NCBI GenBank assembly: GCA_947259315.1
Contig: CAMYLR010000008.1
Coordinates: 31,013 to 95,012, forward strand
From: an uncultured Gemmatimonadales bacterium
GTDB lineage: Bacteria > Gemmatimonadota > Gemmatimonadetes > JACCXV01 > JAHWKZ01
Direction of reading: 5' to 3'
DNA: 64,000 nt
Made by a program: the position numbers and the translations under genes. The notes beneath the pieces were generated by a model that had not been told where the DNA came from, searched no databases, and was given only the letters and a program-made list of their open reading frames with translations. Shown here one piece after another: positions 1-58,798 of the stretch (position 1 is the stretch's first letter; each line of letters begins with the position of its first letter).

Positions 1-732
1 CAGGTCTGCCAGGGCCTCGGCGAGACGCGGTTCCCTTTCCACCGTTGCCCCTCGTACGACAGGCGCGGCTTGATAGGGCGGGAAATAGCTCAGATCGTCA
101 TCGAGAACGACCAAATCCAGACCGGCGATCTGGCCGTCCGTGGAGTTGGCCACCGCGACGTCAATCTGGTCATCGGCCAATGCGCGATACATGAGACCCA
201 AGTCGAGTTGCCGTATTGAGCCAAACTCCAGCCCATACATCTCTCGAAGACCGGGATAGCCATCGGGCCGAGCCATGAACTCGGGGCCGAATCCAGCCAC
301 CAGATCGGCCCCCCGAGGAGCGAGGTCGGCGATCGATGCAAAGCCCTGCGCTTCAGCATCCGCTCGACGAACGACGAGCGCGAAGGTGTTCTCGAACCCT
401 AGTGGGTGTGTCCACTCGAGACCCCACCGTTCTCGATAAACACGGCGCACCGTCTGATACACTCGTTCGGGATCGGTGTCGACCGGGAGCTCAAGCACCG
501 CCGTAAGCGCGGTACCCGTGTATTCCACGTAGACGTCGATTTCACCATTCAACAGGGCGTGGTGGCAAACGAAGGTGCCACCCAGATGGAATCGACGCTC
601 GACCGAGACCCCACGCGCTTCCAACTCCTGAGCCACGATCTCGCCCAAAACGTTTTGCTCGGTGAAGTTCTTCGTGCCTACGACGACCGCATCGCTGGGA
701 GTGCAACCACCGAGCACCATCGTCGCGCACAT
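1..732 (-). CDS. Glycine betaine/choline (QAT-family) ABC transporter substrate-binding lipoprotein, partial; the 3' end runs off the window
   Basis: Manual translation of the minus strand from the ATG at 732 gives MCATMVLGGCTPSDAVVVGTKNFTEQNVLGEIVAQELEARGVSV... The LGGC lipobox and the KNFTEQ/ILGEI motifs are typical of OpuAC/OpuCC-type binding proteins. The frame stays open to position 1. The ORF track omits it because it has no in-window stop. The plus ORF 406..1149 is its shadow. Confidence 0.7.
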   Translation of the reverse strand, partial: MCATMVLGGCTPSDAVVVGTKNFTEQNVLGEIVAQELEARGVSVERRFHLGGTFVCHHALLNGEIDVYVEYTGTALTAVLELPVDTDPERVYQTVRRVYRERWGLEWTHPLGFENTFALVVRRADAEAQGFASIADLAPRGADLVAGFGPEFMARPDGYPGLREMYGLEFGSIRQLDLGLMYRALADDQIDVAVANSTDGQIAGLDLVVLDDDLSYFPPYQAAPVVRGATVEREPRLAEALADL

Positions 733-761
733 CGTGACGAGCGCGCGCCAAACGTGCTCGC

Positions 762-1433
762 TCAACGTTCGCGATCCCTAGTCGCGGCCGGCGTGGCCAG
801 CGTCAGCCTCTTCTCCATCGCGCCGAGCAAACCGTCCGCCAACAACGCCAAGAGCGCGGCTGGCAACGCGCCGGCCAGAATCACTGTGTCGTTGACCATC
901 GCCAGCCCCTGGAAGATGTACACACCAAGCCCACCAGCCCCGATAGCGGCTGCGATAGTAGCGATCCCCACCGACGTGACGGTGGCCACTCTGACACCGG
1001 CCAAGATTATTCCTGCTGAAAGTGGCAACTCGACGCGCATCAAGAGCTGCCGATCGGTCATTCCCATTCCCCGAGCCGCTTCGCGCAAGGCAGGGTCTGT
1101 TCCTCGAATTCCAGCGAACGTGTTGCGGACGATCGGAAGGATCGCGTAAAGGGTGAGCGCTACGATAGCGGTACTCGCACCCACCCCACCAAACAAGGGC
1201 AGTGGAATTAGAAAACCGAACATCGCCAGACTGGGAATCGTCTGGACGACATTGGCAAGCCCCATCACCGGTTTTTCCACGCGACCACTCCGTGTGGCCC
1301 AAACACCAAGCGGTACCCCGATCAAAATCGCCCCGCCGACGGAGATCGCTACGAGCAAAAGGTGTTCCGCCGTCAGATTAGCCATCTCTTGACGATGGTC
1401 GGTGGCGTAACGCCACAGATCAAACATCTCCAC
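762..1433 (-). CDS. Glycine betaine/choline ABC transporter permease (OpuBB/ProW-like)
   Basis: 223 aa multi-TM protein with the ABC permease EAA-like region (REAARGMGMTDRQLLMRVELPLS). It overlaps the upstream ATPase by 14 nt and abuts the SBP gene. Confidence 0.85.
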   Translation of the reverse strand: MEMFDLWRYATDHRQEMANLTAEHLLLVAISVGGAILIGVPLGVWATRSGRVEKPVMGLANVVQTIPSLAMFGFLIPLPLFGGVGASTAIVALTLYAILPIVRNTFAGIRGTDPALREAARGMGMTDRQLLMRVELPLSAGIILAGVRVATVTSVGIATIAAAIGAGGLGVYIFQGLAMVNDTVILAGALPAALLALLADGLLGAMEKRLTLATPAATRDRER

Positions 1434-2190
1434 CGCCTACCCGATCCCCGAAGATCTCGGCCAGCGCGTGGATCTCTGGGTGGTCTGTCTCGAGAAACGT
1501 GTCCGGTGTCTCTAGTGCGCCCAGCGTGCCAGCTGTCAGCAGGCCAATCCGATGTCCAACGCACAGCGCCTCACGCACATCGTGGGTAACGAACAGCGCG
1601 GCCTTGCCGAGCTGCCGCATGAGCGCCTTGAACTCTCGCTGAAGACTGGCTCGAGTGACTGGATCCAAGGCACCGAACGGCTCATCCAGTAACAGCAACG
1701 GCGGGTCAGCCGCCAGGGCTCGAGCGACGCCAACCCGCTGGCGCTCACCTCCGGAGAGCTGGTGGGGTCGGCGTGGTCCGTACGCGTCAGCGGGAAGACC
1801 CACCATGTCCAGCAGCGCTCGCGTGCGCTCCTGAATCCGGTCCGGATCCCATCCCAACAACTCCGGAACCAACCCCACGTTGCTGGCTACCGTCATGTGC
1901 GGAAAGAGGCCGATCTCTTGGATCACATAACCGGTGTTGCGGCGTAGCTCCACCGGATCCCAATCCGAGGTCAAACGACCGCCGACGCGCACGACACCCG
2001 CCGTCGGATCTAGCAGTCGGTTCACCAACTTCAGTACGGTCGTCTTCCCAGCCCCCGACCGACCGACGAGAACGATTGTCTCTCGCTCGTTGACCGTAAG
2101 CGAGAAACGATCGAGAATCGTGTGTCGACTATCGATCGAGTAGGTAACGGCCTCGAATTCGACCGGAATCGAGGTTGCGTGCGTATTCAC
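1420..2190 (-). CDS. ABC transporter ATP-binding protein (OpuCA/ProV-type, no CBS tail)
   Basis: Walker A GRSGAGKTT, signature LSGGERQRV, Walker B LLLLDEPFGALD, H-loop VTHD. GTG start. Confidence 0.85.
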   Translation of the reverse strand: MNTHATSIPVEFEAVTYSIDSRHTILDRFSLTVNERETIVLVGRSGAGKTTVLKLVNRLLDPTAGVVRVGGRLTSDWDPVELRRNTGYVIQEIGLFPHMTVASNVGLVPELLGWDPDRIQERTRALLDMVGLPADAYGPRRPHQLSGGERQRVGVARALAADPPLLLLDEPFGALDPVTRASLQREFKALMRQLGKAALFVTHDVREALCVGHRIGLLTAGTLGALETPDTFLETDHPEIHALAEIFGDRVGGGDV

Positions 2191-2200
2191 GTTTCGAAAC
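2191..2200. promoter_or_regulatory. Perfect 10-bp palindrome GTTTCGAAAC in the 24-bp divergent intergenic region; a candidate operator
   Basis: Read directly: gtttcgaaac is followed by the AT-rich taatata, then gggagcc, then the ATG of the egtD-egtB fusion. It is the only non-coding DNA between the divergent ABC operon and the egt gene. Confidence 0.3.
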
Positions 2201-2214
2201 TAATATAGGGAGCC

Positions 2215-4572
2215 ATGGCGACGGTCACCCAAGCGGTCGAGCTGCTTTTCGCCCGTCCCGGAGCGCCACCGTTCACCACACGACGGGGTGACGGGTGGGT
2301 CGTCCACGTCGACCAAACACCCACGTCCGAAGAAGCCTTCGCCTACAGCGTAGCTCGCGGTCTCTCCGACCATCCGCGATGGCTTCACTGTCGATACCTC
2401 TACGACGAGACCGGCAGTGAGTTGTTCACCAAGATCACCGAGCAACCCGAATACTACCTGACCCAGGCAGAAAACCAGATACTGAAGAAGCAGGCGGATG
2501 AAATCCGCGAGGCGGTGGGTCCGCTACCCCTCATGGAACTTGGTGCTGGTACCGCGGTCAAGACGCAGCAACTTCTCAAGGCGTGGCTCGAGACCGATGG
2601 GGTTGCTGAGTACTTGCCGCTCGATATCGACCCTTCCGTCCTGACCCAGGCGGCCGAGCGACTCACGACCGAGCTACCGGGACTATCCGTCACCGGGCTC
2701 GCAACATCCTACGAGCGCGGGCTCGATCTGTTGGGCAAGCACCAACCGCTCTGTCTGGTCTTTCTGGGTTCGTCGATCGGGAACTTCAATCTCGAACAAA
2801 CAGATATGTTCTTGGCGCGACTTCGAGCGTGCCTCTCGCCCGATGACACATTCCTGCTCGGCGTCGACTTGGTCAAGGATATCCCGCAGTTAGAAGCCGC
2901 TTACAACGACGCCGAGGGCGTGAGCGAGGCTTTTACCCGCAACCTGTTTCATCGGATGAATCGCGAGCTGGAGTCCAACGTCCCGGTCGATGCGATCGAC
3001 CACGTCGCTTTCTGGAACGATCGATTGCAGCGTATCGAGATATACGCCCAATTCCAGGAGGAAGTGCGGGTCGAGCTTCCGTCGATCGACCGAAGGTTTC
3101 GGGTGGCGGCCGGCGAGATGGTCCTCACCGAAATCAGCCGCAAATACCAACTGGCGAAAATCGAGTCCGACTTGGCGCGGTTCGGTTTCCAGTTGGAGAG
3201 AGCGTTCACCGACGATGAGCAACGTTTTGGCTTGCTGCTGTCCCGCCGCATCGCTCCCACCGGCGGACCACCGCCATGGACACCTTTTGCAGCCGGGCTC
3301 CGTGCAGCGCGCAGTCAGACGCTCAGGCTCCTGAGCAGTCTGAGCGACGACCAGCTCAAGCAACAGGTTCTCCCGATCTTGAGCCCGATAGCCTGGGACC
3401 TGGGTCACATAGCCGAGTTTGAGGAGTTGTGGTTGGTCAACGCGATCGATGGGCTAAGCGAGAACGCTGACGTGCACGACCGACTCTCCAAAGATTACGA
3501 TGCGATCGCCACCCCACGTGGAGTTCGTGGGCAGCTCGAGCTCCCGGCAAGCCCCGACATAATGGGTCAGCTAAGAAACGTGCGGCGCGAGGCCCTGAGG
3601 CGCGCCCGCGAGGTAGACCTCGACGTGGACCAACGACTGACGAAGGACGGCTTCGTATACCACATGGTTGTCCAACACGAGCAACAACATCAGGAGACGA
3701 TACTCCAGTCCATCGCGCGGATGGAAAACTTCGTGTACGAGCCAGCTTACGGAGAGAGGCCGCCAAAAACGACCTTGCCACCAGACACCGAGATGGTCGT
3801 TATCCCGTCAGGGTTATTTCCAATGGGCACAGATCGAGAGGCCGATACCTACGACAACGAACGCCCCCCCCACTGGGTGGACGTCGATGGGTTCTGGATC
3901 GATACCGCGCCGGTGACAGCCGGGCAGTTTCTCGAGTTTTTCGACCGCGGGGGTTACCAACGACGTGAATGGTGGTCCGAGGAGGGCTGGGCGTGGCGCA
4001 CAGAGCATGAGATCGAGCGCCCGCTCGGCTGGCGGCGCTCGGAAATCGGCTGGGAGGCGATCGAGTTTGGACGCATCGAGCCCCTCGTTCCCACACGACC
4101 CGTACAGCACATCTCGTGGTACGAGGCATGCGCCTACGCGCGCTCGGTGTCCAAGCGACTGCCAACCGAAGCCGAGTGGGAGAAGGCTGCTGCCTGGGAC
4201 CCCGAAGTGCGGCTTACGCGCCGCTTCCCGTGGGGTGACAGCCCACCTGAGTCACATCACGCCAACCTCGGTGCCGACATCTTTGGTCCCGCCCCCGTCG
4301 GCGCTTTTCCCGCCGGTCGTTCCTTCTTTGGCTGTCACCAAATGCTCGGTGACGTCTGGGAATGGACGGCCAGCGAGATGGAGGCGTACCCTGGCTTTGA
4401 GGCCTACCCGTACCCGGAATACTCCCAAGTGCACTTCGGCCAGGGCCACCGGGTTCTTCGCGGAGGGTCATGGGCCACCGGCCGATCGGTCGCCAGGAAT
4501 ACTTTCCGCAACTGGGATCTCCCCCAGCGGCGCCAAATCTTCGCTGGTTTTCGCTGCGCCCGGGACGCTTGA
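2215..4572 (+). CDS. egtD-egtB: Fused ergothioneine biosynthesis protein: N-terminal histidine N-alpha-methyltransferase (EgtD) plus C-terminal hercynine oxygenase / sulfoxide synthase (EgtB); fungal Egt1-like architecture
   Basis: N-terminal half: YLYDETGSELFTKITEQPEYYLTQAENQIL, LMELGAGTAVKT, LVFLGSSIGNF and LLGVDLVKD match EgtD. C-terminal half: the DinB_2-like IAWDLGHIAEFEELWLV, then the FGE-sulfatase domain with RVLRGGSWAT, FRNW and GFRCARDA, matches EgtB. Confidence 0.85.
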   Translation: MATVTQAVELLFARPGAPPFTTRRGDGWVVHVDQTPTSEEAFAYSVARGLSDHPRWLHCRYLYDETGSELFTKITEQPEYYLTQAENQILKKQADEIREAVGPLPLMELGAGTAVKTQQLLKAWLETDGVAEYLPLDIDPSVLTQAAERLTTELPGLSVTGLATSYERGLDLLGKHQPLCLVFLGSSIGNFNLEQTDMFLARLRACLSPDDTFLLGVDLVKDIPQLEAAYNDAEGVSEAFTRNLFHRMNRELESNVPVDAIDHVAFWNDRLQRIEIYAQFQEEVRVELPSIDRRFRVAAGEMVLTEISRKYQLAKIESDLARFGFQLERAFTDDEQRFGLLLSRRIAPTGGPPPWTPFAAGLRAARSQTLRLLSSLSDDQLKQQVLPILSPIAWDLGHIAEFEELWLVNAIDGLSENADVHDRLSKDYDAIATPRGVRGQLELPASPDIMGQLRNVRREALRRAREVDLDVDQRLTKDGFVYHMVVQHEQQHQETILQSIARMENFVYEPAYGERPPKTTLPPDTEMVVIPSGLFPMGTDREADTYDNERPPHWVDVDGFWIDTAPVTAGQFLEFFDRGGYQRREWWSEEGWAWRTEHEIERPLGWRRSEIGWEAIEFGRIEPLVPTRPVQHISWYEACAYARSVSKRLPTEAEWEKAAAWDPEVRLTRRFPWGDSPPESHHANLGADIFGPAPVGAFPAGRSFFGCHQMLGDVWEWTASEMEAYPGFEAYPYPEYSQVHFGQGHRVLRGGSWATGRSVARNTFRNWDLPQRRQIFAGFRCARDA

Positions 4573-5606
4573 TCGGGCCCGGAGAGCTCGCTAAACGACT
4601 GGCAGGGTTGGCGCTCAACATCGATGAGTGTCGGATCGAGGTCGGCTCGGTTCCGACCGTCGGTTATTACGATGGAGCGCCCCGACCCACCGGCACGATC
4701 TCGTTGATCGGCGGCCATGATGTCGGTCGCGGTGAGAACGTCGATTGGACTCCGGAAGATCAGGCAGCGTTCAGGGACGCCGTGCAAGACAAGGTTCCCA
4801 TCGGATCAACAACGGTCGGCGATCTGACCCAGCGACTGGAAGGCGACCTTGTCGCGCATCACCGAGCGGCGATCGAAGCGGCAGCTATCGACTTGGCGTT
4901 ACGTCAAGCCGGAAGCAACCCTTTTGTTGTGGCTGGTTTGCCGGCGAAACCGGTGACTTTTTGTTGGTCGATTGGTCACGATTTGGCAACCACCGCCGGC
5001 GGACTGTTACAGGCGGTGCGCGCAACTCTGGAAGCCGAACCAGGCGCGCGCTTCAAGCTCGACGTGCCGGCTGAAGGTTGGCCCGAGTCGATGTGGTCGG
5101 AGCTTGCCACGATTGGCCGGGTGCGGACCGTCGATTTCAAACGCCAAGGCTCACCCGGCTCTGTAGCGCTTGCGCATCAGTACTTGCCTGAGGCTTGGCT
5201 GGAAGACCCACCCTTGGAAGCGCTCGAGGACGACAGCGAACAGTCACACGCGTGGGCCGACCGGGTAGCCGTCGATGGTTACGTGACGCGAGTCGCCGAT
5301 TTGGCCGTATTACCCTTTCGACCGACGGCGATCAACGTGAAAGCGCCGCGCATGGGCGGCCCACTCGAGGCCCTTCGCTGTATAGATCTATGTTGTCAAA
5401 GCGGCTGGGCGTGTTACATCGGTGGGATGTTCGAGGTCGGTCCGGGTCGGCTTCAGGCTCGCGTTTTGGCTTCGCTCTTCAGCAGTAGCCAATGGAACGA
5501 CCTCGCGCCGATACGCGTCTGTGATTCGGATCCGTATCCGCCAAGTCCGTTACCGATGTCATCCGGTTTTCGTGGCTTCGGGGAAGCAACCGTTATGGCC
5601 GACTAG
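4569..5606 (+). CDS. Enolase-superfamily protein (mandelate racemase / muconate lactonizing enzyme subgroup, o-succinylbenzoate synthase-like)
   Basis: N-terminal capping-domain signature AAIEAAAIDLALRQAG. Barrel motifs VRTVDFKRQ, WLEDP, INVKAPRMGG and YIGGMFEVGPG. The start is uncertain. The longest ORF begins at ATG 4470 (103 nt overlap with egtDB). TTG 4569 overlaps the egtDB stop as TTGA. TTG 4608 is also possible. Confidence 0.6.
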   Translation: MIGPGELAKRLAGLALNIDECRIEVGSVPTVGYYDGAPRPTGTISLIGGHDVGRGENVDWTPEDQAAFRDAVQDKVPIGSTTVGDLTQRLEGDLVAHHRAAIEAAAIDLALRQAGSNPFVVAGLPAKPVTFCWSIGHDLATTAGGLLQAVRATLEAEPGARFKLDVPAEGWPESMWSELATIGRVRTVDFKRQGSPGSVALAHQYLPEAWLEDPPLEALEDDSEQSHAWADRVAVDGYVTRVADLAVLPFRPTAINVKAPRMGGPLEALRCIDLCCQSGWACYIGGMFEVGPGRLQARVLASLFSSSQWNDLAPIRVCDSDPYPPSPLPMSSGFRGFGEATVMAD

Positions 5607-7546
5607 CTAGTAGTCGCTCCAGGCTGAGGCGCCGCACCCTCGTCCGCTATTCGGCGCGCAAAGTGATCGATCTCCATCGACCCCAGCTCGCCTTCGGCGT
5701 GGGATCGAACGCTCACATGCCCAATTCCCAACTCGCGCTCGCCGACCACGACCATGTAAGGGGTCTTTTGTGTTTCGGCATCTCGGACCTTGTAGCCCAC
5801 GCCCTCTCTGCGGTCATCGACGTGCACCCGGATCGCGTGGCGCTTCAGGTGGGCGGCGACCGTCTCGGCATAATCGTTGAACTGATCGCTGACCGGAATG
5901 ATGCGCACCTGCTCTGGCGCCAACCAGGTTGGGAAGGCGCCCCCATAGTGCTCGATGAGCACGCCGAGGAAACGCTCGATCGATCCCAAGATCGTTCGAT
6001 GGATCACAACCGGTTGCTGCTCGGTTCCATCCGAAGCGGTGTAGTGCAGATCAAACCGCTCGGCCAAGTTGAAATCCAGCTGGACCGTCGCTAGCTGCCA
6101 TTGACGACCGAGCGCATCAGTTGCCTGGAAGTCGATCTTCGGGCCGTAGAACGCCCCTTCGCCAACGCCAATGGTGAAGTCGCGCTCGTTCTCGACCAAC
6201 GCCTGTTCGAGCACCGCCTCGGCGCGATCCCACATCGCCTCTGTACCGATGAACGTATCTGGGCGAGTCGACAGCTCGATCGCGATCTCGAAACCGAACA
6301 CGTCGCCGAGCACGAACTCTATGAGCCCGAGCAACGACGTTACCTCAGCTTGTATCTGATCAGGCGTACAGAAGATATGCGCATCGTCTTGAACGAAGGT
6401 ACGCACTCGCAGGAGACCGCTGATGACGCCCGATTTCTCGTATCGATGTAGTCGACCGAAGTCGGCATATCGGATCGGTAGGTCACGATACGATCGCTTT
6501 CGGCTCGCGTACACGAACGTCGATGCCGGACAGTTCATCGGCTTTACCGCCAGCTCGCGATCGTCCGCCGCCGTGAAGTACATGTGCTCACGGTAGTTGT
6601 CGTAGTGCCCCGAGCGGTGCCAGAGCTCGACGTCGTAGATCTGAGGCGTGACGATCTCCTCGTGCGGCCATTCGGTTTCGAACAGCTCGCGCATAAAGCT
6701 CTGCAAGCGATTGTAGATCCAGGCGCCCTTGGGGTGAAAGTATGGGCTGGCTGGCGCGTTGGAATGGAACGAGAAAAGGTCCAGCTCGCGCCCAAGCCGC
6801 CGATGATCGCGGGCTTTGGCCTCCTCGATCCGCTCCAGGTGTTGCTGCAACTCGGCTTTGTCGAAGAAAGCTGTCCCATAGATGCGGGTCAGCATCTTGT
6901 TTCGCTCGTCGCCACGCCAATAAGCTCCTGCAGTGGACAACAGCCGGAACGTCCCCAGCCTTCCAGTAGCCGGCACATGCGGGCCGCGACAGAGATCCAC
7001 CCACTCCCCCTGACGGTACAGCGTCAGCGTCTCACCCGCGGGCAGGTCCTCGATGATCTCGATCTTGTAGGGCTCATCCAGCTCGCGAAACAAGGCCAAT
7101 GCTTCATCCCGGGACACGACTTCGCGCTCAATACCCAGGTCCTCCTTGACGATCTTGGCCATCTCGGCCTCGATCGCCTCGAAGTCTTCAGGCGTGAACG
7201 GCGTGTCGCGGTCGAAATCGTAGTAGAACCCGTCAGCTATGACGGGACCGATCGTGACTTTGACTTCGGGCCACAGCCGCTGCACCGCCTGCGCCATGAG
7301 ATGCGCCGTGGAGTGTCGGAATATGTCCAGCGCTTCGGGATCACGGCGGGTCAAGATCCGGAGCTTAGAATCACCCTCCAGCGGTCTACCCAGGTCGTAC
7401 GGCTGCCCGTCCACCTCGGCGGCCAACGCCGCCCGAGCTAAACCGGCACCGATTCGACTAGCGACGTCGAGCGGAGTCGAACCGGCAGCTACCTCGAGCG
7501 TGGCCCCGTCCGGCAGAGCCACCGTTGTGGTCTTGTTATTGGTCAT
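5603..7546 (-). CDS. thrS: Threonine--tRNA ligase
   Basis: 647 aa. N-terminal TGS domain, HSTAHLMAQA, class II aaRS core and a C-terminal anticodon-binding domain. Confidence 0.95.
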   Translation of the reverse strand: MTNNKTTTVALPDGATLEVAAGSTPLDVASRIGAGLARAALAAEVDGQPYDLGRPLEGDSKLRILTRRDPEALDIFRHSTAHLMAQAVQRLWPEVKVTIGPVIADGFYYDFDRDTPFTPEDFEAIEAEMAKIVKEDLGIEREVVSRDEALALFRELDEPYKIEIIEDLPAGETLTLYRQGEWVDLCRGPHVPATGRLGTFRLLSTAGAYWRGDERNKMLTRIYGTAFFDKAELQQHLERIEEAKARDHRRLGRELDLFSFHSNAPASPYFHPKGAWIYNRLQSFMRELFETEWPHEEIVTPQIYDVELWHRSGHYDNYREHMYFTAADDRELAVKPMNCPASTFVYASRKRSYRDLPIRYADFGRLHRYEKSGVISGLLRVRTFVQDDAHIFCTPDQIQAEVTSLLGLIEFVLGDVFGFEIAIELSTRPDTFIGTEAMWDRAEAVLEQALVENERDFTIGVGEGAFYGPKIDFQATDALGRQWQLATVQLDFNLAERFDLHYTASDGTEQQPVVIHRTILGSIERFLGVLIEHYGGAFPTWLAPEQVRIIPVSDQFNDYAETVAAHLKRHAIRVHVDDRREGVGYKVRDAETQKTPYMVVVGERELGIGHVSVRSHAEGELGSMEIDHFARRIADEGAAPQPGATTS

Positions 7547-8000: not shown

Positions 8001-9127
8001 CAGCTCGACGCTTGGCCGGCAGCAGCCCCCACGAGCCGAGACACGACCATATCACCCATTTCAGAGGTCGCGATCCCACTTCGGGCATCGGCCGACGGGA
8101 CATCTCCGCTCTGCAGCAGGTCACCGACTGCACGTTCGATCCGCTGAGCGCCGCTCGCCTCACCCAGGAAGTCGAGCATCATAGAGGTCGCCGAGATCGC
8201 GCCCAACGGGCAGGCGACGTTCTGCCCCGTGTACTTGGGAGCCGACCCGTGGACAGGCTCGAACATCGATGTGCGCCCCGGATGGATATTGCCCGACGCA
8301 GCGATACCCATCCCGCCCTGCAGCATCGCTCCCAGGTCGGTGATGATGTCACCGAACAGGTTCGTCGTAACGATGACATCAAACCACTCCGGGTTCTTCA
8401 CCATCCACATACAGCACGCATCGACGTAGGCATGGTCGGTCTCGATCTCAGGGAAGTCGCGGGCGACGTACTCGTACGCTCGGGTCCACAGATCGTGGGG
8501 TCGAATCGCATTCGCCTTGTCGACCAGGGTGACACGCGCGGGGCGGTCGGGGTTCCCGGCTGCCTCGCGATCCCTCCCCCTCTTTCGCGCCAACTCGAAG
8601 GCGTACCGGCACGCCCGCTCGCACCCTTTCCACGTATAGAGGCCGTTGACGAGCGCGACCTCGTCGGGCGTGTCTTTCTTGAGATGACCGCCGATCTGCG
8701 CGTAGAGCCCTTCGGTATTCTCCCGCACGACGACGAACTCGATGTCGCTAGGCCCCTTGTCCTTGAGTGGACATAGATGTTCGGAGTACAGCTTGATCGG
8801 TCGCAGATTCACATACAGGTCGAGGCCGAAACGAAGACCGAGAATCACTGAGCGCTCGACCAGTCCCGGCTCGACGTCGGGGTGACCGATCGCACCGAGG
8901 AGCACCGCGTCCAGCCCGCGCCACTCCTCGATCACCGATTCGGGTACGAGCTCGCCTGTCTTCAGGTAGTGATCACTGCCGTACTCGTACTCGACGAGCT
9001 CGGTCTGGAACCCCTCGAGCTCGGCCGAAGCGGTGAGGACCTTTACGCCCTCCGCCGCCACTTCGGGGCCGATCCCATCACCGGGAATCACGCCGATTCT
9101 GTATGTGGTCATCGCAGCATCTCGCAC
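8000..9127 (-). CDS. 3-isopropylmalate / tartrate dehydrogenase family (beta-decarboxylating NAD dehydrogenase)
   Basis: TTYRIGVIPGDGIGPEV and NLFGDIITDLGAMLQGGMGIAASGNI. The GTG start is at 9127. An in-frame ATG at 9112 (MTTYRIG...) is the alternative. Confidence 0.8.
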   Translation of the reverse strand: MRDAAMTTYRIGVIPGDGIGPEVAAEGVKVLTASAELEGFQTELVEYEYGSDHYLKTGELVPESVIEEWRGLDAVLLGAIGHPDVEPGLVERSVILGLRFGLDLYVNLRPIKLYSEHLCPLKDKGPSDIEFVVVRENTEGLYAQIGGHLKKDTPDEVALVNGLYTWKGCERACRYAFELARKRGRDREAAGNPDRPARVTLVDKANAIRPHDLWTRAYEYVARDFPEIETDHAYVDACCMWMVKNPEWFDVIVTTNLFGDIITDLGAMLQGGMGIAASGNIHPGRTSMFEPVHGSAPKYTGQNVACPLGAISATSMMLDFLGEASGAQRIERAVGDLLQSGDVPSADARSGIATSEMGDMVVSRLVGAAAGQASS

Positions 9128-58057: not shown

Positions 58058-58798
58058 TCAGCGTGTTAGACCTCCATCCACGCAGATAACCTGGCCCGTA
58101 ATATAGTCGCTCATCGGTGAGGCGAGGAACAACGCCAGATTGGCCACGTCGTCGGGGAGTCCCAACCGACCCAGCGGGATTCGACCGAGAAACTCCTCTC
58201 GTGCTCCATCGCCGAGCGCCGCGGTCATTTCGGTCTCGACAAAACCCGGCGCAATGACGTTAACGGTCACGTTTCGGGACGCTAGCTCCTCGGCCAGTGA
58301 CTTCGAGAACCCGATTAGCCCAGCCTTGGAGGCGGCGTAATTGGATTGGCCGGCGTTTCCGGTGACACCAACGATTGAAGCGATGTTAATGATACGGCCC
58401 TCTTTCTGACGTATCATCCGCTTGGCCGCCAATCTGCACCAGTGATAAGCGCCATAAAGATTGGTCTCGAGCACACTGCGCCACTCCTCGGGTTTCATCC
58501 TGAGCAGCAGGTTATCACGAGTTATGCCGGCATTGTTGACCAGCACATCGAGCTGGCCAAACTCGTCTTGGTAGGTGCCCCAGGCGTGCTCGACCTGTTC
58601 CTGGTCAGCCACATCACCGGTGAGCTCGAGGCTGGCCACGCCTTTCTGCCGCAGTGCGTTCGCCGTTTCGGCCACTGTGTCCGCGTTGCGCGCAAAAACC
58701 GCCACGTCGGCGCCAGCCGCGGCCAGACCCTCGGCGATAGCACGACCGATTCCTCGATTGCCGCCGGTGACCAGGGCTTTTCTGCCGCTGAGATCTAT
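58058..58798 (-). CDS. fabG: 3-oxoacyl-ACP reductase (SDR); start codon unresolved
   Basis: The track ORF starts at GTG 58705, downstream of the essential Rossmann motif. The same frame is open upstream and encodes ...SIDLSGRKALVTGGNRGIGRAIAEGL. No ATG/GTG/TTG lies in frame between the fabD stop (58795) and the motif. The only candidates are ATA 58798 and ATC. Confidence 0.8.
   Translation of the reverse strand: MDLSGRKALVTGGNRGIGRAIAEGLAAAGADVAVFARNADTVAETANALRQKGVASLELTGDVADQEQVEHAWGTYQDEFGQLDVLVNNAGITRDNLLLRMKPEEWRSVLETNLYGAYHWCRLAAKRMIRQKEGRIINIASIVGVTGNAGQSNYAASKAGLIGFSKSLAEELASRNVTVNVIAPGFVETEMTAALGDGAREEFLGRIPLGRLGLPDDVANLALFLASPMSDYITGQVICVDGGLTR

What the first reader, a model, noticed from the sequence alone, without database searches (positions are those of the whole stretch)
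1..2214. Betaine/QAT-family ABC importer divergently abutting the egt gene, with a 10-bp perfect palindrome as the only intergenic DNA
An ATPase-permease-SBP operon on the minus strand starts 24 bp from egtD-egtB. The SBP has KNFTEQ and a lipobox. That 24 bp is GTTTCGAAAC (a perfect palindrome) plus TAATATA, which is AT-rich in a roughly 67% GC genome.

The QAT family includes the EgtUV ergothioneine transporter. The layout therefore suggests a co-regulated unit. The importer may handle ergothioneine or hercynine salvage, or betaine/choline uptake, next to the biosynthetic gene, under one shared operator.
Basis: partly seen in the sequence, partly recalled or inferred. Interest (0 to 1): 0.5.

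Follow-up and report, generated by a model that had tools for sequence, protein, structure and literature searches.

The report
Betaine importer wired to ergothioneine genes
A three-gene betaine-type uptake pump sits back-to-back with the ergothioneine-making gene in a Gemmatimonadota genome; the pairing is conserved in related species and probably runs from one tiny two-way promoter, but the 10-bp palindrome is not a conserved control site and the pump's cargo is still unknown.

Summary
The gene layout is real. On the minus strand an ATPase (1420-2190), a permease (762-1433) and a lipoprotein OpuAC-type binding protein (1-765, cut by the window edge) form an operon. It starts 24 bp from a fused egtD-egtB gene (2215-4572).

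The link to ergothioneine genes is not chance. In related genomes, 26 of 27 loci with a binding protein at least 60% identical carry the fused egtDB next door. More distant members of the same binding-protein family sit beside EgtD-family methyltransferases in several other gene orders.

The "shared operator" reading fails. GTTTCGAAAC occurs only in the closest relatives, and the window holds 106 perfect 10-bp palindromes. The conserved element is CTATATTA (27 of 27 loci). It reads as two overlapping -10 boxes on opposite strands, the known symmetric bidirectional promoter geometry, and it predicts near-leaderless mRNAs in both directions.

The binding pocket has an aromatic cage and a Lys/Thr/Arg carboxylate clamp. 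It lacks the S. pneumoniae EgtU ergothioneine determinants and is not a clean AfProX match either.

My best guess (about 0.45) is uptake or recapture of the amino-acid betaine made next door, hercynine or ergothioneine. A generic glycine-betaine or proline-betaine importer remains a strong rival.

Side observation: an enolase-superfamily gene (DUF8230) follows fused egtDB in nearly all lineages examined, including distant ones.

The parts
1..765 (-). Substrate-binding lipoprotein of the ABC importer (OpuAC/PF04069, cluster F-III type). The N-terminal 255 aa lie in the window and the C-terminal ~40 aa lie beyond coordinate 1. The TTG start at 765 overlaps the permease stop (TTGA).
   Evidence: Pfam PF04069, E=2e-52. 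Lipobox VLGG-C21, with the Cys invariant. Pocket residues K32, F34, Y82, T85, N126, F128, E162, R166, Y193 and Y231 were mapped on AfProX and H. pylori EgtU. A 100% identical protein, P0001, is in the protein collection.
762..1433 (-). Single permease gene (223 aa). With only one permease gene, a homodimeric membrane domain is expected.
   Evidence: PF00528, E=7e-23. The nearest solved relative is the OpuA permease 7ahc, E=4e-21.
1420..2190 (-). ABC ATPase (256 aa) of the ProV subfamily, without the C-terminal CBS regulatory module. GTG start at 2190.
   Evidence: PF00005. TIGR01186 proV matches profile positions 11-219 of 363 only, at 238 bits against a cut-off of 326.6. GRSGAGKT, LSGGERQR, LLLLDEP and THD are visible in the translation.
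2191..2200 (.). GTTTCGAAAC, a perfect 10-bp palindrome. It is lineage-specific and lies between the -10 box and the ATPase start codon.
   Evidence: One exact copy in the window. It is found only in L001, L008 and L009 at the orthologous site, with one unrelated copy in L013. The site is degraded or absent in the other 23 related intergenic regions. The window holds 106 perfect 10-bp palindromes.
2200..2208 (.). CTAATATAG (CTATATTAG on the minus strand), the conserved core of the intergenic region. It reads as two overlapping -10 hexamers: TAATAT 2201-2206 on + and TATATT 2207-2202 on -. The -11A and -7T of each strand pair with each other. Predicted start sites are about 2213 (+) and about 2195 (-), 18 bp apart.
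   Evidence: CTATATTA is invariant in 27 of 27 related intergenic regions, always 6-8 nt from the egtDB ATG, while the flanks vary. The geometry matches published bidirectional promoters (PMC10268837). Only one exact copy occurs in the window. Start sites are inferred, not measured.
2215..4572 (+). Fused EgtD-EgtB: histidine N-alpha-methyltransferase plus sulfoxide synthase, the first two steps of ergothioneine synthesis.
   Evidence: TIGR03438 at 304 bits (cut-off 290.9) and TIGR03440 at 380 bits (cut-off 360). PF10017, PF12867 and PF03781. The EgtB half is nearest the type I M. thermoresistibile EgtB 4x8b, at 334 bits.
4569..5606 (+). DUF8230, an enolase-superfamily protein translationally coupled to egtDB (TTG start overlapping the TGA stop). 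It is a constant partner of fused egtDB.
   Evidence: Profile against PDB: OSBS / N-acylamino-acid racemase / dipeptide epimerase group, 1wue 4e-18. AlphaFold model pLDDT 92.5. Foldseek top hits fall in the same group, TM 0.62-0.73. It follows egtDB in most close relatives and in 4 of 4 distant lineages.

Best explanation
This is a type I ABC importer of the quaternary-amine (QAT, OpuAC-type) family. It consists of a CBS-less ATPase, one permease and a lipid-anchored binding protein, and in this Gemmatimonadota lineage it is hard-wired to ergothioneine biosynthesis.

The two divergent operons are egtDB-DUF8230 and ATPase-permease-SBP (followed by a glyoxalase-I-like gene just outside the window). 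They share a 24-bp gap whose only conserved element is an 8-9-bp AT box. That box works as two overlapping -10 hexamers on opposite strands, so RNA polymerase can start in either direction about 18 bp apart. The resulting mRNAs would have leaders of 0-5 nt.

The binding protein holds a quaternary ammonium group in an aromatic cage (Tyr82, Phe128, Tyr193, Tyr231, with Asn126 as the base). It clamps a carboxylate with Lys32, Thr85 and Arg166, so it takes a carboxylate-bearing betaine.

This binding-protein family keeps turning up beside EgtD-family trimethylating enzymes in several independent gene orders. The most likely cargo is therefore the amino-acid betaine made next door, hercynine and/or ergothioneine, taken back up after release or scavenged from the surroundings.

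Shown: gene identities, operon structure, pocket residues, conservation of synteny and of the AT box. Inferred: the transcription start sites, co-regulation and the substrate.
For: Gene and domain calls.

Synteny:
- 26 of 27 loci with an SBP at least 60% identical have fused egtDB next door, and 28 of 29 have the VOC gene downstream.
- The adjacency is kept after rearrangement in L007.

Independent arrangements with the same SBP family:
- egtD (TIGR03438 at 333-341 bits, above cut-off) and an EgtB/OvoA-like synthase sit directly upstream and co-directional in L077 and L080; L042 shows the same order by tblastn.
- egtDB-DUF8230-PNPOx-ATPase...permease-SBP in L090, whose SBP is 54% identical to a 94%-identical full-length relative of the window's SBP (P0002) and carries the same motifs.
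- A distant PF10017 methyltransferase directly upstream of the ATPase in 23 of 46 further loci.
- Overall 55 of 73 loci with enough flank have a PF10017 gene adjacent.

Pocket:
- The Lys/Thr/Arg clamp and the cage were mapped by alignment to AfProX and H. pylori EgtU and are near-invariant across the family.
- Several positions are shared with the H. pylori ergothioneine binder but not with AfProX: His68, Asn126, Thr127, Leu189 (Ile in H. pylori) and Gln232.

Promoter:
- CTATATTA is invariant in 27 of 27 intergenic regions at a fixed distance from the egtDB ATG.
- The reciprocal -11A/-7T pairing and 18-bp spacing follow PMC10268837.
- There is no Rfam hit and no unusual RNA fold in the region.
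Against: - No binding or transport data exist, so the substrate is a guilt-by-association inference.
- Phe34 occupies the position that is Gly in S. pneumoniae EgtU and Ser in H. pylori EgtU. The G244F mutation lowers ergothioneine affinity 100-fold, and AfProX, a glycine-betaine binder, has Phe there.
- The pocket signature is almost the same whether the neighbour is EgtD+EgtB, a lone distant methyltransferase or nothing. This fits a generic betaine as well as a pathway product.
- 17 of 46 more distant loci have no PF10017 gene within reach, and 3 of 4 distant fused egtDB loci have no ABC importer nearby.
- The lone methyltransferase of the distant clade has a different substrate pocket from EgtD; for example the Asn of GSTIGN is replaced.
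- The simple sigma-70 scan did not call the AT box, because no -35 match exists. Gemmatimonadota promoter rules are unknown.
Confidence: 0.45

Rival explanations
1. A general osmoprotectant importer for small betaines (glycine betaine, proline betaine, possibly DMSP). It sits beside egt and other methyltransferase genes because both belong to a stress response, or because imported betaine feeds one-carbon units to regenerate the SAM that trimethylation consumes (three SAM per product).
For: - Overall the SBP is nearest betaine/choline binders: the Thermoanaerobacter OpuBC scaffold at 181 bits and AfProX at 157 bits, against H. pylori EgtU at 148 and S. pneumoniae EgtU at 124-127.
- Phe34, Glu162 and Pro161 are AfProX-like, and the K/T/R clamp equals AfProX K13/T66/R149.
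- The pocket is the same irrespective of the neighbouring enzyme.
- In L003 and L005 a GcvT-like gene, two FAD amine oxidases and a Rieske oxygenase flank the cluster, which could be a betaine demethylation route. A crude neighbour clustering suggests the same in about six further close relatives.
Against: - The ATPase lacks the CBS module that osmotically gated QAT systems carry (the link to gating is established knowledge, not tested here).
- The cage has Phe128 where AfProX-type glycine-betaine binders have Tyr111, and Asn126 where AfProX has Asp109.
- A generic importer would not be expected to be captured by PF10017 genes in four or five different gene orders.
- No BHMT-type gene was seen next to the cluster, although this was not searched systematically.
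Confidence: 0.35
2. One reading: GTTTCGAAAC is the operator of a dimeric regulator that controls both operons and perhaps a wider regulon.
For: It is a perfect palindrome located between the shared -10 box and the ATPase start, where a bound protein would block both polymerase orientations. It is retained in three close relatives.
Against: - It is not conserved beyond relatives at about 89% SBP identity, while the gene arrangement and the AT box are conserved.
- There is one copy in 64 kb and no other promoter-associated copy in 87 loci.
- Perfect 10-bp palindromes are common here, 106 in the window.
- No regulator gene is part of the conserved cluster.
Confidence: 0.05
3. The importer brings in some other quaternary compound unrelated to the neighbouring pathway (choline, carnitine or another onium compound), and the adjacency is inherited gene order without functional meaning.
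For: The closest solved relative by score is a choline/betaine binder. Most clade-level synteny could be vertical inheritance within one phylum.
Against: - The Lys32/Arg166 carboxylate clamp is invariant, whereas the choline-type Thermoanaerobacter protein has Ile and Lys at those positions.
- The adjacency re-forms in different orders and with different EgtB types, and it also occurs with a fused egtDB only about 53% identical to the window's (L090).
Confidence: 0.1

Closest known systems
EgtUV / EgtU ergothioneine ABC importer (S. pneumoniae SPD_1642-1643; H. pylori EgtUV; L. monocytogenes BilE)
   Same: It belongs to the same transporter family (QAT) and the same SBP subcluster, F-III. It also has a single permease type (homodimer expected). 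It shares the aromatic cage, the Lys/Thr/Arg carboxylate clamp and an acidic residue at the E375 position (Glu162). Gly63, His68, Asn126, Thr127, Leu189 (Ile in H. pylori) and Gln232 resemble the H. pylori binder.
   Different: The permease and SBP are separate genes, and the SBP is a lipoprotein. Phe34 stands where EgtU has Gly244 (S. pneumoniae) or Ser (H. pylori), Asn33 where they have Ile or Pro, and there is no Phe293/Tyr337 switch. Phe128 replaces Tyr341. It is encoded by a predicted ergothioneine producer next to egtDB, whereas EgtU was described in non-producers, in streptococci under a MarR-type repressor (PMC9732360, PMC12341727). No binding data exist.
Archaeoglobus fulgidus ProX (glycine betaine / proline betaine binding protein, 1SW1/1SW2)
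   Same: It is the best non-engineered PDB match (157 bits). K13/T66/R149 correspond to K32/T85/R166, F15 to F34, and Y63, Y190 and Y214 to Y82, Y193 and Y231.
   Different: AfProX uses four tyrosines and Asp109. Here Tyr111 is Phe128 and Asp109 is Asn126. His68 replaces Tyr, Leu189 replaces Pro, and Gln232 replaces Asp. The genomic context is also different.
OpuB/OpuC and ProU/OpuA osmoprotectant ABC importers
   Same: They share the OpuAC-fold SBP, a BPD_transp_1 permease and a ProV-subfamily ATPase.
   Different: There is no CBS tandem on the ATPase, and there is one permease gene rather than the two of OpuB/OpuC (the latter from general knowledge). The carboxylate clamp is unlike the choline-specific OpuBC. 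Nothing here indicates osmotic regulation.
Symmetric bidirectional promoters (Warman et al. 2021; Middlemiss et al. 2023, PMC10268837)
   Same: The two -10 hexamers overlap on opposite strands, -11A and -7T pair reciprocally, and the predicted start sites are 18 bp apart.
   Different: Here both directions drive protein-coding operons with almost no leader. The element is under strong purifying selection across species (27 of 27). No start-site data exist, and sigma-factor rules for this phylum are unknown.
Recapture systems for self-made compatible solutes, and the enolase-superfamily plus betaine-SBP clusters of hydroxyproline-betaine catabolism (both recalled from the literature, not checked here)
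   Same: The logic matches: a producer carries a high-affinity importer for its own product. A betaine-binding SBP is also co-located with an enolase-superfamily enzyme.
   Different: The transporter classes and substrates differ. Nothing here has been tested biochemically.

Membership tests
QAT-family ABC importer with OpuAC-type (cluster F-III) binding protein | SBP with the PF04069 fold | tested here: met
   PF04069, E=2.3e-52, covering profile positions 2-224 of 257; the rest lies outside the window.
QAT-family ABC importer with OpuAC-type (cluster F-III) binding protein | Aromatic cage for the quaternary ammonium group | tested here: met
   Y82, F128, Y193 and Y231 with N126 as the base align with AfProX Y63/Y111/Y190/Y214/D109 and S. 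pneumoniae EgtU F293/Y341/Y419/Y443/N339. They are invariant in 87 homologues.
QAT-family ABC importer with OpuAC-type (cluster F-III) binding protein | ProV-type ATPase and BPD_transp_1 permease in the same operon | tested here: met
   PF00005 and PF00528. TIGR01186 scores 238 bits, below its cut-off of 326.6 because the CBS half is absent. The reading frames overlap.
EgtU/EgtUV ergothioneine transporter | Permease and binding domain fused in one chain | tested here: not met
   The genes are separate, 762-1433 and 1-765, and the SBP has its own signal peptide and lipobox.
EgtU/EgtUV ergothioneine transporter | Small residue at the Gly244 position (Gly in S. pneumoniae type, Ser in H. pylori) | tested here: not met
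   Phe34 is invariant or near-invariant in the family, as in AfProX Phe15. The G244F mutation lowers affinity 100-fold.
EgtU/EgtUV ergothioneine transporter | Phe293/Tyr337 'switch' (S. pneumoniae-type EgtU) | tested here: not met
   Tyr82 and Phe124, the same as in AfProX and in H. pylori EgtU, so this feature does not define all ergothioneine binders.
EgtU/EgtUV ergothioneine transporter | Carboxylate clamp K242/T296/R379 and an acidic residue at E375 | tested here: met
   K32, T85, R166 and E162. AfProX has these too, so the feature is not discriminating.
EgtU/EgtUV ergothioneine transporter | High-affinity, selective binding and uptake of ergothioneine | not testable with these tools
   This needs ITC or fluorescence titration of the purified SBP and uptake assays.
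AfProX-type glycine-betaine/proline-betaine binding protein | Four-tyrosine box with Asp109 at the base | tested here: not met
   Phe128 replaces Tyr111 and Asn126 replaces Asp109, both invariant in the family.
Osmoregulated OpuA/OpuC/ProU-type systems | Tandem CBS domains on the ATPase | tested here: not met
   The 256-aa ATPase has only ABC_tran and ends at proV profile position 219 of 363.
Ergothioneine biosynthesis genes EgtD and EgtB | Scores above the curated equivalog cut-offs | tested here: met
   TIGR03438 at 304.2 against 290.9, and TIGR03440 at 380.3 against 360. The best PDB hits are EgtB 4x8b and EgtD 4uy5.
Palindromic operator of a shared regulator | Conservation at the orthologous site, or recurrence at other promoters | tested here: not met
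   Present in 4 of 28 orthologous intergenic regions, all close relatives. There is a single copy in the window.
Symmetric bidirectional promoter | Overlapping -10 hexamers with reciprocal -11A/-7T | tested here: met
   TAATAT 2201-2206 (+) and TATATT 2207-2202 (-). A2202 and T2206 serve both strands. The element is conserved in 27 of 27 loci. The rule comes from PMC10268837.
Symmetric bidirectional promoter | Divergent transcription start sites about 18 bp apart | not testable with these tools
   Predicted at 2213 and 2195. No transcript data are available.

The most novel reading that the evidence does not exclude
This may be a previously unrecognised clade of QAT importers (separate lipoprotein SBP with the motifs KNFTEQ / LGGTFVCH / GFxNTF). 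It would be the dedicated uptake and recapture system for histidine-derived betaines (hercynine, ergothioneine) in bacteria that make them, recognising the ligand differently from EgtU. It would form, together with fused EgtD-EgtB, the enolase-superfamily protein DUF8230 (a candidate PLP-independent late-step enzyme) and a glyoxalase-I-like protein, a self-contained ergothioneine module driven by one symmetric bidirectional promoter.
Probability: 0.3. Interest if true: 0.7.

Novelty: new variant of a known kind. Interest (0 to 1): 0.45.

Why it matters
Bacterial ergothioneine importers (EgtU) have so far been described in species that cannot make the compound. If a producer encodes an importer physically and transcriptionally tied to the biosynthetic gene, ergothioneine or hercynine would be released and recaptured, or shared within communities, in soils and sediments where Gemmatimonadota are common.

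That would also provide a second, structurally distinct solution for recognising these betaines. The 9-bp conserved AT box is a clean natural example of a symmetric bidirectional promoter under selection that drives two coding operons with almost no leaders.

The constant egtDB-DUF8230 pairing points to a testable candidate for the late steps of ergothioneine synthesis. In this cluster, no egtC or egtE homologue is adjacent to egtDB.

Tried and rejected
- **Source contig.** I looked for the window's own contig through exact-protein look-ups of the ATPase and of P0001. Neither is on record, so the SBP C-terminus and downstream genes were read from relatives.
- **Dumitrescu et al. 2022 (PMC9691600) and PMC11685028.** Neither paper is held. 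Supplements of the Giedroc papers hold no sequences. I recovered the H. pylori EgtU and AfProX sequences by querying the PDB with short and chimeric sequences instead.
- **S. pneumoniae EgtU.** No residue-level alignment was printed. Its positions were taken from the papers and tied to AfProX numbering.
- **Palindrome as regulon marker.** Rejected.
- **Riboswitch or structured leader.** No Rfam match at E<=1 in 1-6000, and the fold z-score is -0.13.
- **Sigma-70 consensus scan.** It found only an intragenic TTGACC/GAGAAT pair at 2090-2118 and did not call the AT box, for lack of a -35.
- **GGGAG at 2208-2212 as a Shine-Dalgarno site.** It lies only 2 nt from the ATG and upstream of, or at, the predicted start site, so I consider it unlikely to function as one.
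- **Genome-wide leaderless/SD statistics.** A crude ORF caller gave unreliable start codons, so I drew no conclusion.
- **Pocket differences tracking EgtB.** Differences at positions 161, 164, 165 and 192 follow phylogeny, not the presence of EgtB.
- **AT box in distant lineages.** It is absent upstream of egtDB or egtD in L077, L080 and L088-L091, so it is specific to the divergent arrangement.
- **Not done.** No structure model of the SBP was made, because coordinates cannot be inspected with these tools and fold ranking would not settle the ligand. The rest of the window was not scanned for egtA, egtC or egtE.


Full report
**1. What is at 1-2214**

The sequence and ORF list show three overlapping minus-strand genes.
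- An ABC ATPase lies at 1420-2190 (GTG start at 2190, 256 aa).
- A permease lies at 762-1433 (223 aa).
- A substrate-binding protein starts at a TTG at 765. Its start overlaps the permease stop as TTGA, and the gene runs off the window at coordinate 1.

Pfam assigns ABC_tran, BPD_transp_1 and OpuAC (E=2e-52). NCBIfam places the ATPase in the proV subfamily, but it matches only profile positions 11-219 of 363, so the CBS regulatory half is missing.

The SBP begins MSEHVWRALVTMCATMVLGG-C21 and contains K32-N-F-T-E-Q. The lipobox Cys is invariant in homologues.

On the plus strand, 2215-4572 encodes a 785-aa protein that passes the curated cut-offs of both EgtD (TIGR03438) and EgtB (TIGR03440). 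The gap between the two start codons is 24 bp: GTTTCGAAAC TAATATA GGGAGCC.
- The palindrome is 10 of the 24 bases.
- The window is about 61% G+C, not 67%.
- The palindrome is statistically ordinary. The window holds 106 perfect 10-bp palindromes against about 77 expected, including another 38 bp away. GTTTCGAAAC has a single copy, and its one-mismatch variants occur at chance level.

**2. Where it comes from**

A 100% identical SBP, DUF8230 protein and EgtDB are in the protein collection, from one 116-kb NCBI contig. That contig could not be fetched. Named relatives are all Gemmatimonadota metagenome-assembled genomes.

**3. Is the adjacency meaningful?**

I fetched seven loci through exact-protein look-ups. 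I fetched 80 more by scanning one genome per species with an SBP alignment. All were mapped with tblastn.

Loci with an SBP at least 60% identical to the window's:
- 26 of 27 with enough upstream DNA carry the fused egtDB divergently next to the ATPase.
- 28 of 29 with enough downstream DNA carry a 122-130-aa glyoxalase-I-like VOC gene after the SBP.
- L004 and L018 are the same contig, so these counts include one duplicate.
- In L007 the order is ATPase-permease-SBP, then egtDB convergent, then the VOC gene. The three parts stayed together through a rearrangement.

Loci with an SBP 48-59% identical:
- The fused gene is usually absent.
- In L077 and L080 a genuine EgtD (333-341 bits against a cut-off of 290.9) and an EgtB/OvoA-like sulfoxide synthase lie directly upstream of the ATPase on the same strand. 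L042 shows the same order by tblastn, and L046 has a divergent EgtD.
- In 23 of 46 loci the gene directly upstream of the ATPase is a distant PF10017 (EgtD-family) methyltransferase. Its only PDB relatives are EgtD structures. An MFS transporter usually follows the SBP in these loci.

I also looked up four fused EgtDB proteins only about 52% identical to the window's.
- One of them, L090, has egtDB-DUF8230-PNPOx-ATPase, then two inverted genes, then permease-SBP.
- Its SBP is 54% identical to P0002, a full-length relative 94% identical to the window's SBP, and carries the same motifs.
- The other three have no ABC importer nearby.

In total, 55 of 73 loci with enough flank have a PF10017 gene adjacent to this SBP family, in four or five different gene orders. 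That is hard to explain by inherited order alone. It supports a functional link, although the link is not obligatory.

**4. The intergenic region**

I aligned 27 orthologous gaps.
- GTTTCGAAAC is present only in L001, L008 and L009, which are 89-93% identical in the SBP.
- It reads GCCTCGAAAC in L002, L010 and L011, and GCCTCGGAAC in L012.
- Further out it is unrelated sequence. In several loci the gap lengthens to between 30 and more than 700 bp.
- Across all 87 loci then held, the only other copy is an unrelated site in L013.

By contrast, CTATATTA is invariant in 27 of 27 gaps and always lies 6-8 nt from the egtDB ATG.

In the window, TAATAT (2201-2206) on the plus strand and TATATT (2207-2202) on the minus strand overlap. 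As a result A2202 and T2206 serve as -11A and -7T for one strand and as -7T and -11A for the other. This is the arrangement described for bacterial bidirectional promoters, whose divergent start sites are typically 18 bp apart (PMC10268837).

Applying the usual spacing gives predicted starts at about 2213 (+) and about 2195 (-), which are 18 bp apart. The leaders would be about 2 nt before the egtDB ATG and about 5 nt before the ATPase GTG. These start sites are inferences. The simple sigma-70 scan finds no -35 and does not call the site. No Rfam family and no unusual RNA fold is present.

The palindrome lies across the predicted minus-strand start. I find no evidence that it is an operator. 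No regulator gene belongs to the conserved cluster.

The AT box is absent upstream of egtDB or egtD in the lineages with other gene orders. It therefore belongs to this divergent arrangement.

**5. The binding pocket**

The published determinants of S. pneumoniae EgtU are:
- K242, T296 and R379, which clamp the carboxylate.
- F293, Y341, Y419 and Y443, with N339 as the base, which form the cage.
- E375, which contacts the imidazole.
- Invariant G244 (Phe in AfProX).
- The F293/Y337 switch (Y63/F107 in AfProX).
- I243, T274 and P401 around the sulfur (P296, G327 and I451 in H. pylori).

I recovered the H. pylori EgtU (8dp6/8dp7) and AfProX (1sw1) sequences from PDB alignments, using short and chimeric queries. 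I then aligned them with 87 family members. The window protein has the following residues, each listed with its S. pneumoniae (Sp) EgtU equivalent.

| Window residue | Sp EgtU equivalent |
|---|---|
| K32 | K242 |
| N33 | I243 |
| F34 | G244 |
| E36 | E246 |
| G63 | T274 |
| T64 | T275 |
| Y82 | F293 |
| T85 | T296 |
| F124 | Y337 |
| N126 | N339 |
| F128 | Y341 |
| E162 | E375 |
| R166 | R379 |
| D168 | D381 |
| L189 | P401 |
| Y193 | Y419 |
| Y231 | Y443 |

What this shows:
- The cage and the carboxylate clamp are intact and invariant. The ligand is therefore a carboxylate-bearing betaine, not choline. The choline/betaine-type Thermoanaerobacter protein has Ile and Lys at the clamp positions.
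- The Phe/Tyr switch is absent, but it is absent in the H. pylori ergothioneine binder too.
- The one feature shared by both validated ergothioneine binders and missing here is a small residue at the G244 position. Phe34 matches AfProX.
- His68, Asn126, Thr127, Leu189 (Ile in H. pylori) and Gln232 match H. pylori EgtU rather than AfProX. Phe128 matches neither.
- Overall similarity is also undecided: AfProX 157 bits, H. pylori EgtU 148, OpuCC 144, S. pneumoniae EgtU 124-127.
- The pocket signature barely changes across the family, whatever the neighbouring gene. The few differences (positions 161, 164, 165, 192) follow phylogeny.

The protein is therefore not a member of the EgtU family as defined, nor a clean AfProX-type protein. 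Sequence alone cannot name its ligand.

**6. Explanation**

The most economical reading is as follows. This is a QAT-family importer for a carboxylate betaine that selection keeps next to enzymes which trimethylate amino acids. In this lineage it is co-transcribed with them from a shared symmetric promoter.

I favour hercynine and/or ergothioneine as cargo, that is, recapture or scavenging by a producer (about 0.45). The main rival (about 0.35) is a generic glycine-betaine or proline-betaine importer, linked either through stress co-regulation or through methyl-group supply for a pathway that uses three SAM per product. In favour of the rival:
- The AfProX-like Phe34.
- The uniform pocket across the family.
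- GcvT-like, FAD amine oxidase and Rieske oxygenase genes beside the cluster in L003 and L005, and probably in about six further relatives by crude clustering.

The operator model and pure coincidence are unlikely.

**7. Other observations**

- **DUF8230.** The gene after egtDB (4569-5606, TTG start overlapping the egtDB stop) is DUF8230.
  - A profile search and a confident model (pLDDT 92.5) place it in the enolase superfamily, in the muconate-lactonizing enzyme (MLE) subgroup. Its nearest relatives are o-succinylbenzoate synthase (OSBS), N-acylamino-acid racemases and dipeptide epimerases.
  - The Lys and acidic residues expected of that group are invariant.
  - It follows fused egtDB in most close relatives and in all four distant lineages examined.
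  - No paper in the held library links the enolase superfamily with ergothioneine.
  - The EgtB half is type-I-like, and no egtA, egtC or egtE gene is adjacent to egtDB. DUF8230 is therefore a candidate for a late step, either PLP-independent beta-elimination on the cysteine-sulfoxide adduct or a racemase. This is speculation.
- **VOC gene.** The conserved VOC gene scores below the GloA cut-off (94.7 bits against 165).

**8. Verdict**

The palindrome-operator idea is wrong. The ergothioneine-import idea is plausible but unproven, and by the published criteria the protein is not an EgtU. I found no description of this arrangement in the searchable literature. I rate it a new variant of a known kind, of moderate interest.

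Noticed in passing
window 4569-5606 (+); also L088 10459-11391, L089 10185-11144, L090 10267-11235, L091 10487-11551: A DUF8230 gene is translationally coupled to fused egtD-egtB (TTGA overlap). It belongs to the enolase superfamily, nearest OSBS, N-acylamino-acid racemases and dipeptide epimerases. It follows fused egtDB in most close relatives and in 4 of 4 distant lineages. No egtC or egtE gene is adjacent to egtDB, so it is a candidate late-step enzyme of ergothioneine synthesis, or a betaine racemase.
   Followed up: partly
just beyond window coordinate 1; L002 10932-11300, L003 10941-11324, L007 13242-13625: A 122-130-aa glyoxalase-I-like VOC gene directly follows the SBP in 28 of 29 close relatives and stays beside egtDB in the rearranged L007. 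It scores below the GloA cut-off (94.7 bits against 165). Whether it uses ergothioneine or another thiol is unknown.
   Followed up: partly
L033-L086 (e.g. L044 7563-8504, L038 7565-8599; MFS at L052 11370-12914): In Gemmatimonadales the same ABC importer family is preceded by a distant EgtD-family (PF10017) methyltransferase with an altered substrate pocket. It is followed by a 514-aa MFS transporter, with no EgtB present. The flanking genes are an aldo-keto reductase and a Rieske-FMN-reductase fusion. The methyltransferase product is unknown.
   Followed up: partly
L077 6280-10873; L080 1669-6280; L042: These loci carry a co-directional operon, egtD - EgtB/OvoA-like sulfoxide synthase - ATPase - permease - SBP. 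The synthase scores below both the EgtB and OvoA cut-offs, so it is a different type from the window's EgtB domain.
   Followed up: partly
L003 ~8515-8535, L013, L014, L015, L025 (intergenic region upstream of the ATPase): A conserved 6-codon mini-ORF (MAHRPS*, MAHRLL*, MANRFP*) has a stop that overlaps the GTG start of the ATPase (..TTCGTGA). In L005, L017 and L024 the same ATGGCCAAT.. stretch is in frame as the ATPase N-terminus. It could be a leader peptide with translational coupling, or a frame difference between assemblies.
   Followed up: no
L003 1-5061; L005 1-5105: A GcvT-like gene, two FAD amine oxidases and a Rieske ring-hydroxylating oxygenase lie next to DUF8230-egtDB in L003 and L005, and probably in about six further relatives by crude clustering. 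This may be a betaine demethylation route or may be unrelated. In the window, threonyl-tRNA synthetase (5603-7546, minus strand) occupies that side instead.
   Followed up: no
window 1-64000: Nearly all confidently sized ORFs after 5.6 kb are on the minus strand, and GC skew is negative throughout, with the cumulative skew falling steadily. This is consistent with one replichore with co-oriented genes.
   Followed up: no
window 58098-58106 (-): The only near-copy of the AT box with a single mismatch at its end (CTATATTAC) lies close to the predicted end of an ORF at 58058-58705. It was not examined.
   Followed up: no
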